From an uncultured Rhodospirillaceae bacterium (lineage in GTDB: Bacteria; Pseudomonadota; Alphaproteobacteria; Rhodospirillales; Defluviicoccaceae): 64,000 nucleotides of DNA. Location: assembly GCA_964460955.1 (NCBI GenBank), contig CAYWRP010000002.1, positions 12,654-76,653 on the forward strand, written 5' to 3'. Below, in pieces: positions 6,573 to 64,000 of the stretch (its first letter is position 1; the number at the start of each line of letters is the position of its first letter). Under the pieces are notes generated by a model, which worked only from the letters and a program-made list of their open reading frames with translations, searched no databases and was not told the origin of the DNA. The position numbers were made by a program, and so were the translations under genes.

Positions 6573-7502
6573 ATGATAACCCGACTATACACGCACGGCA
6601 TTTGTGAAAAGCACGAGATGGGAGACTGGCACCCGGAGTCGCCGGCACGGCTGCAAGCCATTCTTCGTACGCTTGGTTCCAGTGAGTTCGCCGAACTGGA
6701 CCGCCGCGAGGCGCCGTTGGGAACGTTCAAGCAGATCGAACGGGTGCACGCGCCCTACTATGTCGAGTCACTGTTCGAAAACGTACCGGCCCACGGCCAC
6801 GTGCATCTCGACCCCGACACGGCGATCAACCCGTCCTCGGGCGACGCGGCGCTGCGCGCCGTTGGTGCGTTATGCGAAGCGGTCGACGCCGTGGTCACCG
6901 GCGAGGCCAACAACGCCTTTTGCGCGGTGCGCCCACCCGGGCATCACGCCGAATCCTCCGCCGCGATGGGCTTCTGTCTGTTCAACAACATCGCCATCGG
7001 CGCCGAGCACGCGCGCCACGCGCACGGTCTCGAACGCGTCGCGATGGTCGACTTCGATGTCCATCACGGCAATGGCACGCAGAACCACGTCTTTCGCTAC
7101 CGCGACCTCTTCTATGCCTCCAGCCACCAGTGGCCCTGCTATCCGGGGACCGGCATGGAGCACGAGACGGGCGTGTTCAACAATATTTGCAACGTCACGT
7201 TGCCGCCGGGGAGCGGGTCGGATGAGTTCCGGCAAGGCTATCTGGAACGCATCCTCCCGGCATTGCGCACCTTTCGGCCGGAACTCATTCTGGTCTCGGC
7301 CGGATTCGACGCCCATGTCCGCGATCCCCTCGCCCAGCTTCGCGTGGAAACCGAGGATTTCGCCTGGATCACGCGGCAACTGATGGATGTCGCCGACGAC
7401 CTGTGCCAGGGGCGCATCGTGTCGACCCTCGAGGGCGGTTACGACCTGCAGGCGCTGGCGGCCAGCGCGGGGGTTCACGTCCGCGTGCTGATGGGGCATT
7501 AG
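6573..7502 (+). CDS. Histone deacetylase-family (AcuC-like) Zn amidohydrolase
   Basis: HPESPARL, RPPGHHAE, DFDVHHGNGT, SAGFDAH and LEGGY motifs. Confidence 0.93.
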   Translation: MITRLYTHGICEKHEMGDWHPESPARLQAILRTLGSSEFAELDRREAPLGTFKQIERVHAPYYVESLFENVPAHGHVHLDPDTAINPSSGDAALRAVGALCEAVDAVVTGEANNAFCAVRPPGHHAESSAAMGFCLFNNIAIGAEHARHAHGLERVAMVDFDVHHGNGTQNHVFRYRDLFYASSHQWPCYPGTGMEHETGVFNNICNVTLPPGSGSDEFRQGYLERILPALRTFRPELILVSAGFDAHVRDPLAQLRVETEDFAWITRQLMDVADDLCQGRIVSTLEGGYDLQALAASAGVHVRVLMGH

Positions 7503-7736
7503 CCGCCCGGTCGACCGACGACCTTCGCGGGCCGCCGTCATTCTCGCCCCGCGCCGTGTCGACATTCCTGCAAGGTCGGATCGGTCGTGACATTTATGTC
7601 GCGGCAGCGGTGCGCAATCCGCTCACGGCCCTTGCAACAATTCGAAAAAATCGCGAAAACTCACCATTCGAGGACGTCAGCGCGGCACAAACCGAAACCG
7701 TGCCCGGCAATCGAAAAAATCTGGACCAACAAGGCC

Positions 7737-7988
7737 GTGACCACAGAAACGCCCCAACGCGACATCGCTGACATGAGCTTCGAGGAGGCACTCGCCGAAC
7801 TCGAGGCCATCGTTCGCGGCCTCGAAAGTGGCGAGACCAAGCTCGAAGAGGCCGTCACCGCCTACGAACGCGGGTCTTCTTTGAAGGAGCATTGCGAAGC
7901 GAAGCTGCGCGACGCCCAGTTGCGGGTCGAACAAATCTCCGTCAAGGCGGACGGCGAGGTGACCGCCGAGCCGATCAATCTCGATTGA
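7737..7988 (+). CDS. xseB: Exodeoxyribonuclease VII small subunit
   Basis: MSFEEALAELEAIVRGLESGETKLEEAVTAYERG...CEAKLRDAQLRVEQI; start placed at GTG 7737 (ATG 7773 is an alternative); precedes ispA-dxs. Confidence 0.92.
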   Translation: MTTETPQRDIADMSFEEALAELEAIVRGLESGETKLEEAVTAYERGSSLKEHCEAKLRDAQLRVEQISVKADGEVTAEPINLD

Positions 7989-57277: not shown

Positions 57278-58177
57278 ATGATCGCAAAAACCTCATGGTC
57301 TGTTTTGAGAGCGTATTTCAGGCCTGCACGCGCGGATTTCGAGCCGTTTTACGATGCCGCCGCGGGACTCGTTAACAAGTTTTGCATCATCTCTACCACA
57401 GTTCTGTTCGCTCTGATTTTTAATTCTGCCGCGTGCAATGCCGAGGCCGAACCGGCCACCGCCGCCGAGGCGACAGCAATCGTCGCCTCGATCATCGACG
57501 GCGATACGGTGGTTCTGAAGGAACCGATCAAGGGCGCGCGGGAAGTGCGGCTGGTCGGCATACAGGCGCCGAAGCTGCCACTCGACCGGCCCAATTTCCG
57601 CAAGTGGCCGCTTGCCGACCAGGCGCATGACAGGATCGCCGAGTTGAGCGCCGGACGTTCGTTCCAGCTGAAGTTCACCGGCAGGGATCGCGATCGGCAT
57701 GGGCGGTTGCTGGCACACATGTTCCGCGACGACGGTTTGTGGCTGCAAGGCGCCATGATGCAGGCGGGATTGGCGCGAGTCTACACCTTCGCCGATAACC
57801 CGGCCTTCGCGGATGCCCTGTTGGAACTGGAACGGGCGGCGCGGACCGACGAGCGGGGGATCTGGGGCCATCCTTATTATGTCATCCGTACGCCGACGGA
57901 GGTCCGCTATGACATCGGCACGTTCCAGATCGTCGAAGGCAGCGTTCTCAAGGCGGCGCGGGTCGGCCAATGGGTGTACCTGAATTTCGGGCCGAATTGG
58001 CGCACGGACTTCACCGTTTCCGTCAATGCCAACGACCTCGCGTCGTTCGAGGCGGCGGGCCTCGATCCGCCGCGGATGTCGGGCGCGCGGATTCGTGTCC
58101 GCGGCTGGGTCGAAGACCGCAACGGGCCGATGATCACCCTCGATCATCCGCAACCCCTGGAAGTGATAGATCCATAG
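57278..58177 (+). CDS. Thermonuclease (SNase)-fold protein with extra C-terminal domain
   Basis: IDGDT, VRLVGIQAP, DRHGRLLAH, GLARVY, RGIW, then about 95 aa starting GTFQIVEG...YLNFG...RVRGW; hydrophobic segment near the N-terminus; start uncertain. Confidence 0.85.
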   Translation: MIAKTSWSVLRAYFRPARADFEPFYDAAAGLVNKFCIISTTVLFALIFNSAACNAEAEPATAAEATAIVASIIDGDTVVLKEPIKGAREVRLVGIQAPKLPLDRPNFRKWPLADQAHDRIAELSAGRSFQLKFTGRDRDRHGRLLAHMFRDDGLWLQGAMMQAGLARVYTFADNPAFADALLELERAARTDERGIWGHPYYVIRTPTEVRYDIGTFQIVEGSVLKAARVGQWVYLNFGPNWRTDFTVSVNANDLASFEAAGLDPPRMSGARIRVRGWVEDRNGPMITLDHPQPLEVIDP

Positions 58178-58195
58178 GCTGTCGGCGGCCCCTTC

Positions 58196-58660
58196 CTACA
58201 GCGCGAGGAAAGCGGCGTCGGCGGGAACCGAGGCGAAGAACGTCACCGCGCCGGTGACTTCCGCCGCAACGTCGTCACGAAGATCCGCCGCTTCGATGTC
58301 GCTGGCGCGCAGCCCCATCTCGCAGACCAGGAAGCGGACGCCAAGCGCGGCGCATGCGCCCAACAGTTCCTCGAAGCCGGCGACACCGCGCCGACGATTT
58401 GTGGCGTCGGTCTCCACCGCCGGCGTGCCGTCTTCGCCGCACATCGCCGCCCAGCCCGGCCGACCGTCGTCGCCGCGGCGGGTCAGCGCGCGGCAGGCCT
58501 GCAGGGTGAAAAAGATCGTGCACGGCTTGCCAAGGGCGGCCTGGCTCGCGGCCAGAACAAGGGCGTAATGAACCCGTTCGAAGGCACCTGAGAGGGCGAC
58601 GATGGCCATCGCTTGCGGCCCGCCGAGCGTGCCGTCGTCGGCGCCGTCAATCTCCGTCAT
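58196..58660 (-). CDS. DsrE/DsrF-like family protein
   Basis: AIVALSGAFERVHYALVLAA...TIFFT...FEELL...GVRFLVCEMGL (conserved Cys); 14-nt overlap with the moeB end. Confidence 0.75.
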   Translation of the reverse strand: MTEIDGADDGTLGGPQAMAIVALSGAFERVHYALVLAASQAALGKPCTIFFTLQACRALTRRGDDGRPGWAAMCGEDGTPAVETDATNRRRGVAGFEELLGACAALGVRFLVCEMGLRASDIEAADLRDDVAAEVTGAVTFFASVPADAAFLAL

Positions 58661-59456
58661 GGCCGCCAAGGTCGACGATGCTGGGGGCGTCGCCGCACAG
58701 CGGGCAGCCGGGATCGGGCGGCACCCGGATGCGGCGGAACGTCCCCGACAAGGCGTCCGCCAGGAGGAGCCAACCGGCGAGACTGTCGCCAATGCCGAGG
58801 ATCTCCTTGATGACCTCCGTCGCTTGCAACGAGCCGACAACGCCGCAAAAGGCGCCCATGACGCCCGCCTCGGCGCAGGAAGGCGCGGCGTCGGCGCCCG
58901 GCGGATGACCATACAGGCATCGGTAACAGGGGGTGCGATTGCCATCACGGTCGTGTCGACGGAAGGTGGCGACTTGGCCGTCGAACCGCAGGATGGCGCC
59001 GGAGACGAGGGGGACATCGGCGAGGTAGCAGGCGTCGTTGACGAGAAAGCGGGTCTCGAAATTGTCCGACCCGTCGGCGACGATGCGATAGCCGGCGATA
59101 AGGTCGGGGGCGTTGCCGGCGTTCAACCGGTGGCGATGGCGGATCACCGTCGTTCCGGGGTTGATGCGGGCGATCGTCTCGGCGGCACTGTCCACCTTCG
59201 GCTGGCCGATGGCGCTGGTGCCGTGAATCACCTGGCGCTGCAGGTTCGTCAGGTCGACGGTATCGTCGTCGACAATGCCGAGGGTGCCGACGCCGGCGGC
59301 GGCGAGATAGAGCAGTAGCGGCGAGCCCAGGCCGCCGGCGCCGACGACGAGAACGCGGGCCTCGCGGAGCCGGGCCTGGCCGATGCCGCCGATCTCGGGC
59401 AGGATGATGTGGCGGGCATAACGGCGCAGCTCGTCATCGGTGAACGTGGCGGCCAT
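58647..59456 (-). CDS. moeB: MoeB/ThiF/HesA E1-like adenylyltransferase
   Basis: RYARHIIL, GAGGLGS, NLQRQ, DGSDNF, CYRC and CPLC Zn pairs, SCAEAG; no rhodanese domain. Confidence 0.9.
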   Translation of the reverse strand: MAATFTDDELRRYARHIILPEIGGIGQARLREARVLVVGAGGLGSPLLLYLAAAGVGTLGIVDDDTVDLTNLQRQVIHGTSAIGQPKVDSAAETIARINPGTTVIRHRHRLNAGNAPDLIAGYRIVADGSDNFETRFLVNDACYLADVPLVSGAILRFDGQVATFRRHDRDGNRTPCYRCLYGHPPGADAAPSCAEAGVMGAFCGVVGSLQATEVIKEILGIGDSLAGWLLLADALSGTFRRIRVPPDPGCPLCGDAPSIVDLGGHDGD

Positions 59457-59488
59457 CTCCGGAAAAGAGGCGAACGAGCCGCCGGCTG

Positions 59489-60478
59489 TCAAGCCGTCCC
59501 GAGGCCATCGAAAAGCGGCGTCGACAGGTAGCGCTCGGCGAAAGACGGCAGGATCACGACAATCCGCTTATCGGCGAACCGCTCCCGCGTCCCAACCTCG
59601 ACCGCCGCAGCGAGGGCGGCGCCCGACGAGATGCCGACGGGCAGCCCCTCCAGTTTGGCGACCTTGCGCGCCATGGCGAATGCCGTCTCATTGCCGATCT
59701 TGATTACTTCGTCGATCAGATCGGTCTGCAGCACACCGGGGATGAAGCCGGCGCCGATCCCCTGGATCTTGTGCGGCCCGGGCACGCCGCCCGACAACAC
59801 GGGGCTGTCTTCCGGCTCCACGGCGATCATCTTCAGGTCCGGGTTGCGCTTCTTGAGGACCTCGCCGCAGCCGGTCAACGTGCCGCCCGTGCCGACGCCG
59901 CTGATCAAGGCGTCGATCCGACCTCCGGTGTCGCGCCAGATCTCCTCGGCGGTGGTGTGGCGATGCACTTCCGGGTTGGCGGAATTGCTGAACTGCTGCA
60001 GCATGTAGGCGTTGGGGACGCTGTTGACCAACTCCTGCGCCTTGGCAACCGCGCCCGGCATACCCTTGGCCGCGGGCGTGAGAACGATTTCCGCCCCCAA
60101 CAATGCCAACATCTTGCGCCGCTCGACGGCCATGCTTTCCGGCATGGTCAGCATCAGCCGATAACCGCGCGCCGCGCAGACGAAAGCCAGGGCGATGCCG
60201 GTATTGCCGGACGTCGGTTCGATCAGCGTCGCGTCCGGGGCCAACTGGCCGCTCGCTTCGGCGGCCTCGATCATCGCCAAGCCGATGCGGTCCTTCACCG
60301 AGCTCAGCGGATTGAAGAACTCGCACTTCCCCAGCAGTTCGGCGGGGCAGCTGGTCTCGTGGGCGAGTTTCCTCAAGCGCACCAGGGGAGTGTTGCCGAT
60401 CGTATTAAGGATCGACTCGTGGATGTGCTCTTCCGATGAGCTGTTTTCCGACGTCATCGGCAAATGTTGCGCGGTCAT
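59489..60478 (-). CDS. cysK: Cysteine synthase A (O-acetylserine sulfhydrylase)
   Basis: IGNTPLV, NPLSSVKDRI (PLP Lys), PTSGNTG, GVGTGGT, GPHKIQGIG, GISSGA. Confidence 0.96.
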   Translation of the reverse strand: MTAQHLPMTSENSSSEEHIHESILNTIGNTPLVRLRKLAHETSCPAELLGKCEFFNPLSSVKDRIGLAMIEAAEASGQLAPDATLIEPTSGNTGIALAFVCAARGYRLMLTMPESMAVERRKMLALLGAEIVLTPAAKGMPGAVAKAQELVNSVPNAYMLQQFSNSANPEVHRHTTAEEIWRDTGGRIDALISGVGTGGTLTGCGEVLKKRNPDLKMIAVEPEDSPVLSGGVPGPHKIQGIGAGFIPGVLQTDLIDEVIKIGNETAFAMARKVAKLEGLPVGISSGAALAAAVEVGTRERFADKRIVVILPSFAERYLSTPLFDGLGTA

Positions 60479-60566
60479 GGCGTTTCGTCCCAGTCCTTTT
60501 CGTTCCCTCGCTCGGCCCGGCATTCCGGGAAACGGTATCGATCCGGCTGGCGAGGCGCGAACGCGT

Positions 60567-61022
60567 TCAAATCGAGAAGTCCAGATTGCTCCGACCCTCG
60601 CTCCGGATGCCAGCCAAATGTGCCTTATCGCACAAATCATCCAGCGTTACGTTATCGAGTTGCGTCAATACATTATCTGTCAGCTGACGCCAGAGCGGCC
60701 GGACCACCTGGCGGGCCAGCACCGACCCGGTTTCTTCCTCAAGAACATCGTTCTCTGCGTCGCCGTTACGGACGATGCGGACGATCTGGCCGACCGTAAT
60801 GCGCCGACGCTCGCGCGCCAGTCGATAGCCGCCGCGCGGGCCGCGCACGCCGACCAGGACACCATGGCGCACGAGATCCTGAAGCGCTTGTTCGAGGTAG
60901 CGGCGCGGTATTCCCTGACGCCGGGTGATTTCTCGGCTTTGCACGGGCTCGGCGCCGGCGTGAAAGGCGATGTCCAGCACCGCTTCGATGGTGAACAAGG
61001 CTTTACGCGATAATCGTATCAT
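60567..61022 (-). CDS. Rrf2-family regulator, Cys-poor (CymR-like)
   Basis: YLEQ...GVRGPRGGYRLAR wHTH; only one Cys, so no IscR/NsrR three-Cys cluster; C-terminus SNLDFSI. Confidence 0.9.
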   Translation of the reverse strand: MIRLSRKALFTIEAVLDIAFHAGAEPVQSREITRRQGIPRRYLEQALQDLVRHGVLVGVRGPRGGYRLARERRRITVGQIVRIVRNGDAENDVLEEETGSVLARQVVRPLWRQLTDNVLTQLDNVTLDDLCDKAHLAGIRSEGRSNLDFSI

Positions 61023-61037
61023 CCTTGACGCACGTCC

Positions 61038-61508
61038 TTATTCCGACTCTTCGACGGTGAGGCCGGTCGAGCCGAACCCGTTGACGGATCGTTGCGTGCC
61101 GTCCAACGCCGCGACTTCGCGCCATTCGGCGGTGCAAACGGGCGCGAAGACGAGTTGGGCGATCCGCATGCCGCGTTCGACATCGAATACCCGGTCACCG
61201 AAATTGATCATCACCACGGAAATTTCGCCGCGGTAATCGGCGTCGATGGTTCCGGGCGCATTGAGGACGGTCAGTCCATGCTTGGCGGCAAGGCCAGACC
61301 GGGGCCGCACCTGGGCCTCGTAACCCTTCGGAATGGCGACGGCGATTCCCGTCGGGATCCACGCGCGCGCGCCGGGGCGGATCGAGACGGTCTCTCCGGT
61401 CGCGGCCAGCAGATCCATGCCGGCGCTCAGTTCCGTTGCGTATCGCGGCAGCGGCAGGTCCTGGGCATGGCCCAGCCGAACGATTTCGACGTTCAATGGG
61501 GCTGGCAT
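61038..61508 (-). CDS. dut: dUTP diphosphatase
   Basis: SAGMDL, RPRSG, NAPGTIDADYRGE, RIAQ, GFGSTG. Confidence 0.96.
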   Translation of the reverse strand: MPAPLNVEIVRLGHAQDLPLPRYATELSAGMDLLAATGETVSIRPGARAWIPTGIAVAIPKGYEAQVRPRSGLAAKHGLTVLNAPGTIDADYRGEISVVMINFGDRVFDVERGMRIAQLVFAPVCTAEWREVAALDGTQRSVNGFGSTGLTVEESE

Positions 61509-62713
61509 GGCGCTTCCAGATGGTCGGCGATTCGCTCCGCGAGCCGGTTGGCGACGTTTTCTTTGCTCATCGCCGGCCAGGCCTCGACGCCGGCGGCGGA
61601 GATCAGGTTGATCGTGTTGGCGTCACCGCCGAAGGTTCCGCTCGCCGCCGAGACGTCGTTGGCGAGAATCCAGTCGCATCCCTTGCTCAGCCGTTTTTGC
61701 GTTGCGTGGGCGACGAGATCGGAGGTCTCGGCGGCGAAACCGACGACGATCGTCGGCCGGCGATTTCCGGCGCGCGAGAGGGTGGCGAGGATGTCCGGGT
61801 TCTCGGCCAGTGTTAGGGCCGGTGGGGCGCCGCCTTCCTGTTTCTTCATCTTCTGTTCCGCCAGTTCGGCCGGCCGCCAGTCGCTCACCGCCGCCGCGCA
61901 GACGGCAATGTCCCGCGGCAGCGCGGCCTCGCAGGCCTCCAACATCTCGCGTGCCGTCTCGACATGGATGACGTGCACACCGACGGGGTCGGCAATCGCC
62001 ACCGGACCGGAAACCAGCGTTGTTTCGGCGCCGAGACGGGCCAGCGCGGCGGCGATGGCATGGCCCTGTCGACCGGACGATTGATTGGAAAGGAACCGCA
62101 CCGGGTCGATCGGCTCGCGGGTCGGCCCACTCGTCACCAGCGCGCGTCGGCCGGCGAGACGATCGCCGCAACGTAACAAGTCGGTAATCGCGGCCAGAAT
62201 CTGCGGAGGCTCGGCCATGCGGCCGAAGCCCCATTCGCCGCAGGCCATGTCACCCTCGTTGGGGCCGACGAAGTGGATGCCGCGTTCTTCCAGCGTCCGC
62301 AGATTGGCTTGCGTCGCCGCGTGTTCCCACATGCGCACGTTCATCGCCGGCGCCGCGAGGACGCGTTTGTCGGTGGCCAGCAGCGTCGTCGTCGCCAGAT
62401 CGTCGGCCATTCCCGCCGCCGTTCGGGCGAGCAGATCGGCCGTCGCCGGCGCGATGACGACCAAGTCGGCCTCTCGCGACAGCCGGATGTGCCCCATCTC
62501 GCTCTCGTCGGTGAGCGAGAACAGATCCTGGTAGACCTTGTTTTCGGTGAGCGCGGCGATGGCGAGCGGTGCGACGAACTGACTGCCGCCGGTTGTCAGG
62601 ATGCACCGGCATTGCCCCCCCGCCTCGCGAATCAGGCGGATCAGTTCGAGGCTCTTGTAGGCGGCGATGCCGCCTGAGATGATCAATAAGATGGTTCTAC
62701 CGGCAAGCTTCAT
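61493..62713 (-). CDS. coaBC: Phosphopantothenoylcysteine decarboxylase/synthase
   Basis: SGGIAAYK, HIRL, APAMNVRMW, TSGPTREPIDPVRFLSNQSSGRQG, AAVSDW, VGFAAET; start trimmed to ATG 62713. Confidence 0.96.
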   Translation of the reverse strand: MKLAGRTILLIISGGIAAYKSLELIRLIREAGGQCRCILTTGGSQFVAPLAIAALTENKVYQDLFSLTDESEMGHIRLSREADLVVIAPATADLLARTAAGMADDLATTTLLATDKRVLAAPAMNVRMWEHAATQANLRTLEERGIHFVGPNEGDMACGEWGFGRMAEPPQILAAITDLLRCGDRLAGRRALVTSGPTREPIDPVRFLSNQSSGRQGHAIAAALARLGAETTLVSGPVAIADPVGVHVIHVETAREMLEACEAALPRDIAVCAAAVSDWRPAELAEQKMKKQEGGAPPALTLAENPDILATLSRAGNRRPTIVVGFAAETSDLVAHATQKRLSKGCDWILANDVSAASGTFGGDANTINLISAAGVEAWPAMSKENVANRLAERIADHLEAPCQPH

Positions 62714-62867
62714 CGTCGCCACATGATTAACGGTGCCATACTGTAGAAGAAATGGGCACGCGCGGCGTTCAAGGCAAGCGCGCTTTTGCATGTGCGAAAA
62801 AGCGGCAGGCAGTCGATGCCGCCGACCGATTACCGGCCACGCCGCATCAGGGGGGCGCTTCTCGTGC

Positions 62868-63647
62868 TTAAGTTCGCCAGGCCGAGTGAATGGCGACGAT
62901 GCCGCCGGAGAGGTTGCGATACCGCACTTGCCCGAAGCCGGCCGCCTCGATCATTTCGGCGAAGCGCCGCTGCGGCGGGAACTGTCGAATGCTTTCGGCA
63001 AGATAGACATAGGCCTCGCGGTTGCGGGCGACGATGGAACCGAGCGCCGGGAGGACGGAGAAGGAATACCGGTCATAGAGGCTGTCGAGCAGGGGCAGGG
63101 CGACGGCGCTGAATTCGAGGCAGAGGAAACGCCCGCCGGGCTTGAGCACCCGCCGCGCCTCCGTCAACGCCCGGTCGACATGGGTGACATTGCGCATGCA
63201 AAACGCCGTGGTATAGGCATCGACGCTGCCACTCGCCACCGGGAGGCGTTCAGCATCGCCGCAGGCCCAGGCAATACCGATGCCGGCCGCCCGATCAACC
63301 AGCCGGTCCCGCCCGGTGAACAGCATCCTCTCGTTAATGTCCATGACGACGACGTCGGCGCGGCGTTCGCGTATTCGCTGCGCGATGTCCCCCGTTCCGC
63401 CGCCGACGTCGAGAACGGTTTGCCCCGGTCGGGGATTGAGCCAATCGATCATCGCCGCTTTCCAGAGGCGATGCGCGCCGAGGCTCATCAGATCGTTCAT
63501 CAGATCGTATCGGCTGGCGACGCCGTCGAACACGTCACGGACGAAACCGGATTTCTCGTTGGCCGATACCGTCTTGAACCCGAAATGGGTCGTCTCGGTG
63601 GCCGGTTCTGATTGCCTATTCCTATCGGATGAGGATGCCGTCGACAT
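62868..63647 (-). CDS. ubiE: UbiE/MenG C-methyltransferase
   Basis: THFGF, VFDGVASRYDLMNDLMS, LDVGGGTGD, RRVLKPGG, YLAESI; start uncertain (63647 or 63674). Confidence 0.94.
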   Translation of the reverse strand: MSTASSSDRNRQSEPATETTHFGFKTVSANEKSGFVRDVFDGVASRYDLMNDLMSLGAHRLWKAAMIDWLNPRPGQTVLDVGGGTGDIAQRIRERRADVVVMDINERMLFTGRDRLVDRAAGIGIAWACGDAERLPVASGSVDAYTTAFCMRNVTHVDRALTEARRVLKPGGRFLCLEFSAVALPLLDSLYDRYSFSVLPALGSIVARNREAYVYLAESIRQFPPQRRFAEMIEAAGFGQVRYRNLSGGIVAIHSAWRT

Positions 63648-63693
63648 GGGGCGGAAGATATCGCAACGCCCCATTTCGTGCTAGCTGATTGTC

Positions 63694-64000
63694 ATGCCGG
63701 AGTTGCCGGAAGTCGAAACCACACGTCGCGGCCTCGTTGCCGCCCTCGTCGGCTCGGTGGTCGAGGCGGTCGTCTGCCGCCGGCCGGATCTGCGCTTCCC
63801 GCTTCCGGTGCGGTTCGCCGAGCGGGTGGCGGGGCGGCGCTGCGAGGGGATCGAACGGCTCGGCAAGTTTCTGCTGATCCGCCTCGAGGGCGGATTGGTC
63901 TGGATCGCGCACCTCGGCATGTCCGGGCGATTCCGCATTCTCGACGCCTGGCCGCCGGCCAAGGATCCGCACGATCACGTTCTCATCCGAGCCGGCAACG
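63694..64000 (+). CDS. mutM: Formamidopyrimidine-DNA glycosylase, N-terminal part; runs off the right edge
   Basis: Manual translation [14 protein letters not shown]...RLGKFLL...HLGMSG; not in the ORF track because there is no stop in the window. Confidence 0.95.

What the first reader, a model, noticed from the sequence alone, without database searches (positions are those of the whole stretch)
59489..61022. Rrf2 regulator ends in a CysK-docking-like tail (DFSI) directly upstream of cysK
Seen: AGC AAT CTG GAC TTC TCG ATT TGA gives ...SNLDFSI-COOH on an Rrf2 with a single Cys, about 90 bp upstream of cysK. Known: CysK binds partners through a C-terminal Ile inserted in its active site (CysE tails, B. 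subtilis CymR ending MFYI, CdiA-CT ending GYGI), and O-acetylserine dissociates these complexes. Inference: an alphaproteobacterial CymR-CysK-type cysteine sensor, encoded in one run with its partner and with cysteine/sulfur consumers (coaBC upstream, moeB-dsrE downstream). This is the best candidate for an under-described regulatory system in the window.
Basis: partly seen in the sequence, partly recalled or inferred. Interest (0 to 1): 0.7.

Follow-up and report, generated by a model that had tools for sequence, protein, structure and literature searches.

The report
Alphaproteobacterial Rrf2 regulator with CysK-docking tail
A small DNA-binding regulator encoded just upstream of cysteine synthase (CysK) ends in a conserved peptide (…DFSI) of the kind that plugs into the CysK active site, and across Alphaproteobacteria this tail is kept only where that CysK is kept, so it is very probably an undescribed CymR-like sensor of cysteine and sulfur status.

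Summary
Window 60567-61022 (-) encodes a 151-aa Rrf2 protein with one Cys. It ends in …SNLDFSI and lies 88 bp upstream of a genuine cysK (59489-60478).

- Across 169 syntenic loci (coaBC-dut-rrf2-cysK-moeB) from about 80 alphaproteobacterial families, 161 proteins end in [DN]-[FY]-x-Ile-COOH.
- The tail codons vary synonymously. The preceding linker is variable, and AlphaFold2 predicts it to be disordered.
- All 161 tail-bearing genomes keep the orthologous CysK: 154 adjacent and 7 moved elsewhere in the genome.
- All five genomes that lost this CysK (four independent events) also lost the tail, although dut, coaBC or moeB remain. There is one counter-example.
- DFSI is identical to the M. tuberculosis CysE peptide crystallised in CysK1 (PDB 2Q3C). 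CysK1 is the closest solved relative of this CysK.
- The genome's own CysE lacks a terminal Ile, as do 34 of 39 CysE sampled in the class.

The protein fails the CymR and IscR equivalog models. It works like CymR without belonging to that family. No operator was found in the window; a palindrome seen in relatives is only tentative. I found no published description.

The parts
60567..61022 (-). rrf2 gene: 151-aa Rrf2-family regulator without an Fe-S ligand set, ending ...SNLDFSI
   Evidence: ORF and translation. PF02082 97 bits, TIGR00738 96.5 bits. AF2 model mean pLDDT 88; Foldseek TM 0.65-0.9 to IscR and CymR structures.
60798..61022 (-). N-terminal winged helix-turn-helix DNA-binding domain (about residues 1-75)
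   Evidence: AF2 elements H6-20, H29-36, H40-52, E56-59, E65-68 with pLDDT 84-97. Many invariant columns, e.g. I38 P39 R41 Y42 L43 E44 Q45 and G61 P62 G64 G65 Y66. Aligns to the E. coli IscR DNA-binding domain.
60630..60632 (-). Codon of Cys131, the only cysteine, in the last helix (…DDLC…)
   Evidence: Translation. Cys in 165/169 orthologues, but S/V/Y in four. It cannot make an IscR/NsrR-type cluster site alone.
60585..60614 (-). Flexible linker, residues 137-146 (AGIRSEGRSN)
   Evidence: Sequence-variable across orthologues. Mean pLDDT is 57 for residues 141-150.
60570..60584 (-). C-terminal tail L147-D148-F149-S150-I151: proposed CysK active-site docking peptide
   Evidence: Motif [LIVMA]-[DN]-[FY]-x-I-COOH in 161/169 orthologues, Ile invariant. 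Synonymous codon variation and all three stop codons. pLDDT below 50. Identical to Mtb CysE DFSI in PDB 2Q3C. Co-lost with CysK.
60479..60566 (.). 88-bp rrf2-cysK spacer; no recognisable operator, promoter, terminator or RNA element
   Evidence: Best candidate-operator PWM score is 3.9 bits. No sigma-70-like site or terminator. No Rfam hit. RNA fold z-score -0.11.
59489..60478 (-). cysK: O-acetylserine sulfhydrylase A, the proposed partner
   Evidence: TIGR01139 443.9 bits. Best PDB relative is Mtb CysK1 2q3b/2q3c, E 4e-118, 60% identity. TSGNT, QQF, GVGTGGT and IQGIGAGF motifs retained, unlike the two paralogues on C38 and C5.
58647..59492 (-). MoeB/ThiF-type adenylyltransferase; conserved neighbour, not the tail's partner
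   Evidence: PF00899 255.8 bits, NF004281 307 bits. Still present next to tail-less rrf2 in L147 and L164, and absent from loci L208-L215 that keep the tail.
58196..58720 (-). DsrE2-like small protein (start uncertain)
   Evidence: PF13686 37 bits, NF047629 44.5 bits, below its cut-off. Conserved downstream of moeB in many loci.
61038..61508 (-). dut (dUTPase), 15 bp upstream of rrf2
   Evidence: PF00692 108.7 bits. Conserved directly upstream of rrf2 across the class.
61493..62791 (-). coaBC (phosphopantothenoylcysteine synthetase/decarboxylase)
   Evidence: PF04127 227 bits and PF02441 98.5 bits. Conserved upstream of dut across the class.

Best explanation
The gene encodes a cluster-less, dimeric Rrf2 transcription factor. 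A flexible 10-residue linker carries its free C-terminal peptide (L-D-F-S-I-COOH). The proposal is that this peptide inserts into the active site of the CysK encoded next door. The Ile carboxylate would occupy the substrate-carboxylate site (TSGNT loop and Gln of QQF), and the Phe would occupy the conserved hydrophobic channel, exactly as CysE and CymR tails do. The resulting Rrf2-CysK complex would sense O-acetylserine (OAS). When sulfide or cysteine is plentiful and OAS is low, CysK holds the regulator and the complex most likely binds DNA and represses cysteine and sulfur-assimilation genes. When OAS accumulates it competes for the active site, releases the tail, and the genes are derepressed.

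Shown here: the Rrf2 fold; the absence of Fe-S ligands; tail conservation at protein level; a disordered linker and tail; a CysK with an intact peptide-binding surface; and co-retention and co-loss of the tail with this particular CysK across the class.

Inferred: physical binding, OAS sensitivity, the direction of the effect on DNA binding, and the regulon.
For: (1) Tail conservation. All 120 closest clusters end DF[S/T/I]I. All 80 species loci from Rhodospirillales are exactly 151 aa and end [LIVMHY]-[DN]-[FY]-x-I. In the 50%-identity representatives the tail persists down to 37% identity, while the preceding 8-10 residues are unrelated. Of 169 syntenic loci, 161 have the strict motif.
(2) Selection acts on the protein, not the DNA. 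Codon use is GAC/GAT 40/38, TTC/TTT 58/18, ATC/ATT/ATA 48/29/3, and all three stop codons occur.
(3) Phylogenetic profile. All 161 tail-bearing genomes have the orthologous CysK (154 adjacent). In seven the gene has moved, is still 66-70% identical, and the tail is kept. The five genomes whose locus lacks cysK and whose best CysK hit is a paralogue of 47% identity or less (none at all in the incomplete G143) have all lost the tail. These represent four independent events in families f76, f42, f145 and f157, and tail-plus-cysK sister genomes exist in f42 and f157. dut, coaBC or moeB persist in those loci, so CysK is the correlated partner.
(4) AF2. The core 1-136 has high pLDDT; residues 147-151 score below 50. 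A conserved but disordered terminus is typical of a docking motif.
(5) DFSI is the native Mtb CysE tail solved in CysK1 (PDB 2Q3C; PMC9547175). Mtb CysK1 is the best PDB hit of this CysK, and the contact motifs are identical. The two paralogous CysKs in the genome have altered GIGAG loops.
(6) Precedent. The S. aureus CymR decapeptide ...MFYI binds the CysK active site with KD 25 nM, shown by X-ray, with the aromatic residue at -2 in a conserved channel (bioRxiv 10.1101/2024.09.19.614015).
(7) The pocket has no competing CysE ligand. The genome's own CysE ends ...HASDRS, and 34 of 39 sampled alphaproteobacterial CysE lack a terminal Ile.
(8) It is the only open frame in the genome that ends with the motif.
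Against: No binding, OAS response or DNA target has been measured, and no multimer model could be run. One genome (L154/G373) keeps an adjacent orthologous cysK but its Rrf2 ends ...DAVAHL, with no frameshift rescue. Two others have weaker variants, HFDI and TFEI. The regulator gene survives intact in genomes that lost CysK and the tail, so CysK cannot be an obligatory co-repressor everywhere. No operator was found in the window's own locus. The palindrome found in relatives is only modestly supported, with p about 0.01-0.05 against column-permuted matrices. The protein scores below the CymR equivalog cut-off and is slightly closer to IscR. Cys131 is nearly invariant (165/169), so a thiol-based input cannot be excluded.
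Confidence: 0.65

Rival explanations
1. The tail does dock into CysK, but the logic differs from CymR. Either the regulator acts mainly as a CysE-like inhibitor or buffer of CysK activity, or CysK sequesters the regulator away from DNA (anti-repressor direction), or binding merely protects the regulator from proteolysis.
For: The tail is CysE-like (D-F-x-I; identical to Mtb CysE DFSI), not CymR-like (M-F-Y-I). CysE in these genomes lacks the tail, leaving an enzyme-regulatory role vacant. The Rrf2 gene stays intact in genomes without CysK, so it can work without CysK.
Against: A transcription factor encoded 1:1 in an operon is a poor stoichiometric inhibitor of an abundant enzyme. The only studied Rrf2-CysK pair uses CysK as co-repressor. 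Nothing here discriminates the direction of the effect.
Confidence: 0.2
2. The conserved tail has nothing to do with CysK. It is a C-terminal degron, an intramolecular or dimer contact, or a docking site for another protein, and its match to CysK-binding peptides is coincidental.
For: No interaction data exist. One orthologue with an adjacent cysK lacks the tail (L154). Conserved hydrophobic C-termini can act as protease tags (general knowledge).
Against: The tail is lost in exactly those genomes that lost the orthologous CysK (5/5). It is kept when cysK merely moved (7/7). dut, coaBC and moeB remain beside the tail-less genes. AF2 does not pack the tail against the fold. The tail is identical to a peptide crystallised in the closest solved CysK.
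Confidence: 0.07
3. It is an ordinary IscR-like or thiol-redox Rrf2 regulator that senses through Cys131, and its position next to cysK is only inherited synteny.
For: The best HMM and structural matches are IscR (TIGR02010 85.7 bits; 4chu E 1e-19). Cys131 is conserved in 165/169. Single-Cys Rrf2 redox sensors exist, e.g. SaCymR, SaiR and HypR (PMC11672702).
Against: It scores far below the IscR cut-offs (207.55 and 275) and has none of the three cluster cysteines. The genome has a separate IscR-like Rrf2 next to cysE-nifS/suf. Four orthologues lack the Cys, three of them with the tail intact. This reading does not explain the tail or its co-loss with CysK.
Confidence: 0.06

Closest known systems
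CymR-CysK regulatory complex of Bacillus subtilis and Staphylococcus aureus (Rrf2 family; NCBIfam NF047409; PDB 2y75, 3t8r/3t8t)
   Same: Both are cluster-less Rrf2 dimers of about 140-150 aa. Both have a short flexible C-terminus ending aromatic-x-Ile-COOH, with the aromatic residue at -2 and Ile at 0. For CymR this is shown to sit in the CysK active site. The proposed OAS-sensitive complex controlling cysteine metabolism is the same.
   Different: It is not an orthologue: NF047409 68 bits against 195, 26-31% identity, and slightly closer to IscR. The tail is D-F-S/T-I, not M-F-Y-I. The gene sits directly upstream of cysK in a class-wide coaBC-dut-rrf2-cysK-moeB array. The conserved Cys lies in the C-terminal helix rather than in the wHTH. 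Binding, operator and regulon are untested.
Cysteine synthase complex: CysE C-terminal tail in CysK (e.g. M. tuberculosis CysE DFSI in CysK1, PDB 2Q3C; H. influenzae and S. aureus CysE peptides)
   Same: The last four residues are identical to the Mtb CysE tail. The partner CysK is most similar to Mtb CysK1. The D-[FY]-x-I pattern equals S. aureus CysE ...DDYII.
   Different: The carrier is a transcription factor, not serine acetyltransferase. In this genome and in most sampled Alphaproteobacteria, CysE itself lacks the terminal Ile.
IscR (TIGR02010, PDB 4chu/4hf0)
   Same: Best sequence and structure match for the wHTH plus dimerisation-helix fold.
   Different: It has no Cys92/98/104-His107-type ligand set, scores below the equivalog cut-off, and is not next to isc/suf genes. 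The genome's real IscR-like gene is elsewhere, at C27:3637-4155.
Other CysK clients with C-terminal Ile (CdiA-CT of E. coli 536)
   Same: They use a terminal Ile to plug the CysK active site (PMC5562914, abstract).

Membership tests
Rrf2 family (PF02082 / TIGR00738) | HMM match above the curated cut-off | tested here: met
   PF02082 97.1 bits (cut-off 30); TIGR00738 96.5 bits (cut-off 73.3).
Rrf2 family (PF02082 / TIGR00738) | wHTH plus long dimerisation-helix fold | tested here: met
   AF2 pLDDT 88. Foldseek top hits are IscR, CymR, NsrR and RsrR, with probability 1.00 and TM 0.6-0.9.
CymR (NCBIfam NF047409, equivalog) | HMM score at or above 195 bits | tested here: not met
   68.1 bits. It is therefore not filed as a CymR orthologue.
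CymR (functional definition) | No Fe-S cluster ligand set | tested here: met
   One Cys only (C131). No Cys in the region that aligns to the IscR cluster loop.
CymR (functional definition) | C-terminal aromatic-x-Ile tail on a flexible linker | tested here: met
   ...LDFSI. The motif is conserved in 161/169 orthologues. Linker and tail have low pLDDT.
CymR (functional definition) | Physical complex with CysK, dissociated by O-acetylserine | not testable with these tools
   Only indirect support: co-retention and co-loss of the tail with the orthologous CysK.
CymR (functional definition) | Operator sites upstream of cysteine or sulfur genes | tested here: inconclusive
   A palindrome of about TGTrwnAAw-N6-wTTnwyACA occurs in about 30/107 rrf2-cysK spacers of relatives. 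A matching site lies upstream of the DUF2849-sulfite reductase operon in the window's own genome. Cross-validated enrichment gives only p about 0.01-0.05. There is no site in the window's own spacer.
IscR (TIGR02010 / NF008110) | HMM above cut-off, three Cys ligands, linkage to isc/suf | tested here: not met
   85.7 bits against 207.55, and 79.6 against 275. One Cys. Its neighbours are dut and cysK. A separate IscR-like gene sits beside cysE-nifS on contig C27.
CysK-binding C-terminal-Ile clients (CysE, CymR, CdiA-CT) | Invariant terminal Ile with free carboxylate, and a hydrophobic or aromatic residue at -2 | tested here: met
   Ile in 161/161 and F/Y in 161/161 tail-bearing orthologues. The tail is identical to Mtb CysE DFSI.
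CysK (TIGR01139), as competent partner | Equivalog score plus an intact peptide-binding surface (TSGNT loop, QQF, GTGGT, QGIGAGF) | tested here: met
   443.9 bits (cut-off 350.95). 60% identity to Mtb CysK1. All four motifs are present. The paralogues on C38 and C5 differ in the GIGAG loop.

The most novel reading that the evidence does not exclude
In Alphaproteobacteria the classical CysE-CysK cysteine synthase complex is largely absent, since CysE has no Ile tail. The CysK docking pocket has instead been taken over by a transcription factor that independently evolved a CysE-type tail. The Rrf2-CysK pair, inherited with the ancient coaBC-dut-rrf2-cysK array, would then be the class-wide master sensor of O-acetylserine and sulfide supply. 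It would also explain pleiotropic, non-auxotrophic cysK phenotypes such as those of the Azospirillum brasilense cysK-A mutant.
Probability: 0.4. Interest if true: 0.75.

Novelty: new variant of a known kind. Interest (0 to 1): 0.6.

Why it matters
How Alphaproteobacteria sense cysteine and sulfur status is poorly defined. This class includes rhizobia-like plant associates, Azospirillum, magnetotactic bacteria and many marine lineages. This finding gives a concrete, testable candidate: a regulator present in about half of the sampled genomes of the class (201 of 401; 149 of 308 genera), always in the same locus, whose tail co-evolves with one particular CysK. It would extend CysK 'moonlighting' as a transcriptional co-sensor from Firmicutes to a major Gram-negative class. 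It would show that a CysE-type tail can be carried by a regulator while CysE itself has none. It would also offer an explanation for the pleiotropic phenotypes of the A. brasilense cysK-A mutant, whose gene is flanked by this regulator (PMC12811640). The tail sequences are in addition natural CysK-binding peptides of the kind used as leads for CysK inhibitors.

Tried and rejected
- Operator in the window. The position weight matrix (PWM) learned from relatives scores at most 3.9 bits in the 88-bp spacer and at most 10.4 bits anywhere in 58000-64000; that best hit lies inside conserved rrf2 coding sequence. The consensus promoter/terminator scan was uninformative. There was no Rfam hit and no unusual RNA fold in the spacer.
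- k-mer enrichment in the rrf2-cysK spacers at first only recovered the tail codons and the cysK N-terminal codons.
- The palindromic motif from EM is real-looking in Azospirillum and Magnetospirillum, but only weakly transferable. Hits upstream of cysI in other genomes are not controlled for AT-rich promoters. I report it only as a candidate.
- Complementarity idea (either CysE or the Rrf2 carries the tail): rejected as a rule. CysE lacks Ile in 27/30 genomes with the Rrf2, and also in 7/9 genomes without it. The two f76 genomes with a tail-less Rrf2 do have Ile-tailed CysE.
- Frameshift rescue of the tail-less L154 protein: no DFxI in another frame.
- MppG (RSP_2888) of Rhodobacter sphaeroides appeared in a literature search for Rrf2 plus O-acetylserine. 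It is RirA-like, controls photopigment genes and is unrelated.
- Searches for a published alphaproteobacterial counterpart found none. Rodionov 2006 covers only RirA, NsrR and IscR.
- Outside the class: a phylum-level search with the most distant representative found hits only within Alphaproteobacteria. The 38%-identical representative P0174 has the same ubiE-ubiB-dut-rrf2-cysK-thiF synteny.
Full report
**1. The observation**

Window 60567..61022 on the minus strand is an ATG-started ORF of 151 codons. Its product ends ...DDLCDKAHLAGIRSEGRSNLDFSI. It is an Rrf2-family protein: PF02082 97 bits, TIGR00738 96.5 bits, both above cut-off. It has a single cysteine, C131.

After an 88-bp gap (60479..60566) comes cysK at 59489..60478, which matches TIGR01139 at 443.9 bits against a cut-off of 350.95. 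On the same strand:
- Upstream lie coaBC (61493..62791) and dut (61038..61508); dut ends 15 bp before rrf2.
- Downstream lies a MoeB/ThiF adenylyltransferase (58647..59492, overlapping the cysK stop by 4 nt), followed by a DsrE2-like ORF.

**2. Is the tail more than chance?**

A single tetrapeptide in one genome proves nothing. Among 23,931 open frames of 70 aa or more in the genome it is the only one ending [DN][FYW]xI. The evidence lies in its conservation:
- The 120 closest protein clusters (69-100% identity) all end DF[S/T/I]I.
- Eighty species-level loci from Rhodospirillales (Azospirillum, Magnetospirillum, Nitrospirillum, Caenispirillum, Defluviicoccus, Stellaceae and others; 61-72% identity) all encode exactly 151 aa and all end [LIVMHY]-[DN]-[FY]-x-I.
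- Among 50%-identity representatives from 1.8 billion proteins, the full-length hits down to 37% identity still end D-[FY]-x-I, while the 8-10 residues before the motif are unrelated in sequence. The hits without the tail mostly look like fragments or frameshifted products.
- The tail codons vary synonymously: GAC/GAT 40/38, TTC/TTT 58/18, ATC/ATT/ATA 48/29/3, and all three stop codons occur. Selection therefore acts on the peptide and not on an overlapping DNA element.

**3. Distribution**

In an even sample of 401 alphaproteobacterial genomes, 201 (149 of 308 genera) have a homologue at E of 1e-15 or better. I fetched 80 of these loci from about 77 different families, plus 8 more divergent ones. 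Nearly all show the same array coaBC-dut-rrf2-cysK(-moeB(-dsrE)). The most distant representative, P0174 at 38% identity, sits in ubiE-ubiB-dut-rrf2-cysK-thiF. A phylum-level search found no hits outside the class. This is therefore an ancient, class-wide orthologous group and not a local curiosity.

**4. The natural experiment**

I pooled 169 loci: the window, L001-080, L086-165 and L208-215. Of these, 161 proteins carry the strict motif [DN][FY]xI.
- All 161 tail-bearing genomes keep the orthologous CysK.
  - In 154 it is adjacent.
  - In 7 it has moved elsewhere (6 cases) or lies 3 kb downstream (L064), at 66-70% identity. These are G315, G281, G773, G774, G775, G776 and G656.
- Five genomes have a locus without cysK: L121/G370, L161/G074, L163/G344, L164/G300 and L147/G143.
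  - Their best CysK-like hit anywhere is only a 38-47% paralogue (none in the 81%-complete G143).
  - All five have lost the tail; they end HAAI, RVVA, GGQA, DLAS and IEGP.
  - They fall in four families (f76, f42, f145, f157). Two of these families also contain sampled genomes with both tail and cysK (L111, L106), so these are at least four independent losses.
  - In L147 and L164 moeB now follows rrf2 directly. coaBC remains in all five loci and dut in four. In L208-L215 moeB is absent from the locus but the tail is kept. The tail therefore tracks CysK and not any other neighbour.
- The exceptions are one tail-less protein beside an orthologous cysK (L154...DAVAHL, no frameshift rescue) and two weaker variants (HFDI, TFEI).
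- The naive Fisher test on adjacency alone gives p = 3.7e-5. The genome-level table is much sharper, but no test corrected for phylogeny was run.

**5. Structure**

AlphaFold2 on a 46-sequence alignment gives a confident Rrf2 core (pLDDT above 90 for most of residues 1-136). The linker scores lower (mean 57 for residues 141-150), and residues 147-151 score below 50. This is the signature of a conserved but unstructured docking peptide. Foldseek places the model with IscR (31-34% identity), CymR (26-31%), NsrR and RsrR.

**6. The partner**

The best solved relative of this CysK is M. tuberculosis CysK1 (2q3b/2q3c/2q3d, E 4e-118, 60% identity). 2Q3C is CysK1 with the tetrapeptide DFSI, the native C-terminus of Mtb CysE (PMC9547175). 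The window's tail has the same four residues.

The motifs that contact tail peptides in S. aureus CysK are all present: the TSGNT loop, the Gln-Phe of QQF, the GTGGT loop, and Q-G-I-G-A-G-F (for the contacts; for the alignment). The genome's two paralogous CysKs differ here:
- The C38 paralogue (41% identity) has IQGWTPDF plus a 16-residue insertion.
- The C5 paralogue (39% identity) has SEGIGQGR and TAGNT.

That an Rrf2 tail can occupy this pocket is no longer hypothetical. The S. aureus CymR decapeptide EDLDGYMFYI binds SaCysK with KD 25 nM, and the crystal structure shows Ile in the substrate-carboxylate site and the -2 aromatic residue in a conserved channel (bioRxiv 10.1101/2024.09.19.614015).

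**7. CysE**

The genome's only good CysE (contig C27:2779-3576) ends ...PRHASDRS. In 30 other alphaproteobacterial genomes with the Rrf2, 27 best CysE hits lack a terminal Ile. Two of the three that have one (…DQRI, …DHRI) belong to the f76 genomes whose Rrf2 lost its tail. In 9 genomes without the Rrf2, 7 CysE also lack Ile. The absence of the CysE tail is therefore a class trait and not a strict complement of the Rrf2 tail. It does mean that in most of these organisms the regulator, and not CysE, is the obvious ligand for the CysK pocket.

**8. How it most likely works**

By analogy with CymR, and consistent with everything above, the regulator dimer is tethered to CysK through its tails when the active site is free of OAS. 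The complex is the DNA-binding (repressing) form. OAS accumulation under sulfide limitation displaces the tails and derepresses the targets.

The DNA side is the weak part.
- Alignments of the rrf2-cysK spacers of the Azospirillum and Magnetospirillum groups show a palindrome, for example GTAGTTAA-CGTC-TTAACTAC.
- A palindrome-constrained EM finds about TGTrwnAAw-N6-wTTnwyACA in roughly 30 of 107 spacers. The gamma x IC statistic is 4.9, against 2.1-2.6 in shuffles.
- A matrix trained only on Rhodospirillales is modestly enriched in other families' spacers and in upstream regions of cysI, with p about 0.01-0.05 against column-permuted matrices.
- In the window's own genome the sixth-best strict site lies just upstream of the DUF2849-sulfite reductase operon.
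- The window's own spacer has no such site. In many genomes the spacer is too short for a promoter, so rrf2 and cysK are probably often co-transcribed with coaBC-dut.

I regard the operator as a lead only.

**9. Rivals**

- The direction or purpose of the interaction may differ: enzyme inhibition, sequestration or stabilisation. The intact rrf2 in CysK-less genomes shows that the regulator can function without CysK.
- A CysK-independent role for the tail (degron, other partner) is hard to reconcile with the co-loss pattern.
- A purely IscR-like or thiol-redox role is not supported. The protein has no cluster ligands, scores below the IscR cut-offs, and the genome has a separate IscR-like gene next to cysE-nifS/suf. 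However, Cys131 is conserved in 165/169 and could add a redox input.

**10. Comparison with the known**

In mechanism it resembles CymR-CysK. In membership it is an Rrf2 protein but not a CymR equivalog (68 bits against 195) and not an IscR. It differs from CymR in tail chemistry (CysE-type D-F-x-I), in gene arrangement, in taxon, and in the absence of a competing CysE tail.

I found no paper describing it. The A. brasilense cysK-A study only notes an 'Rfr2 family transcriptional regulator' next to the gene. It reports a pleiotropic, non-auxotrophic mutant (PMC12811640), which a regulatory role of CysK-A could explain.

Earlier notes of this scan reached CymR-like readings for the same operon in other genomes, and report tail-bearing Rrf2 proteins in other phyla. 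I treated these as leads only.

**11. Verdict**

It is a new variant of a known kind of system. It is moderately to highly interesting, because it gives a class-wide, directly testable candidate for cysteine and sulfur sensing in Alphaproteobacteria.

Noticed in passing
own genome contig C27:2779-5327 (outside the window): cysE (265 aa, ends ...PRHASDRS, no terminal Ile) is followed by a second, IscR-like Rrf2 gene (172 aa) and a NifS/SufS-like gene. Most sampled alphaproteobacterial CysE (34/39) lack the Ile needed for the classical cysteine synthase complex.
   Followed up: partly
own genome C38:~6812-7819 and C5:10420-11352: Two CysK paralogues (41% and 39% identity). The C38 copy has a 16-residue insertion and IQGWTPDF in place of IQGIGAGF. 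It resembles the 'CysK-B'/Brucella abortus type reported not to bind CysE tails.
   Followed up: partly
L038, L068, L054, L037, L046, L060 and others (rrf2-cysK spacers); own genome C63:3438-3463: A candidate operator palindrome of about TGTrwnAAw-N6-wTTnwyACA lies upstream of cysK in Azospirillum, Magnetospirillum and other groups. One site lies upstream of the DUF2849-sulfite reductase operon of the window's genome. Statistical support is weak.
   Followed up: partly
own genome C5:54369-54394: The best genome-wide match to that palindrome (ATTGTAGAAAGAGAGAAATTTACATA) lies upstream of a small secreted protein, followed by a chromate-transporter (ChrA-family) gene. Its relation to sulfur control is unknown.
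   Followed up: no
window 58196-59492: The moeB-like gene overlaps the cysK stop by 4 nt, and a DsrE2-like ORF overlaps the moeB 3' end, with no ubiquitin-like sulfur carrier in sight. The moeB-dsrE pair is conserved in many but not all loci, and it persists where cysK is lost.
   Followed up: partly
window 61493-61508 and 61023-61037: coaBC and dut overlap by 16 nt, and dut ends 15 bp before rrf2. No promoter-like site was found, which suggests that rrf2 (and perhaps cysK) is read through from the housekeeping coaBC-dut unit.
   Followed up: partly
L011:5457-5866 and L046:5457-5669: These unusually long rrf2-cysK spacers contain short tandem duplications, e.g. GTGACGGCCGATAACGGCCCACTGGTT twice in L011 and CTGATGTCCTGGG twice just after the stop in L046.
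   Followed up: no
L121/L161 (genomes G370, G074): In family f76 the Rrf2 has lost its tail and the orthologous CysK is gone, while CysE carries an enterobacterial-type Ile tail (…DHRI, …DQRI). This may be a switch back to a classical CysE-CysK arrangement with a different CysK.
   Followed up: partly
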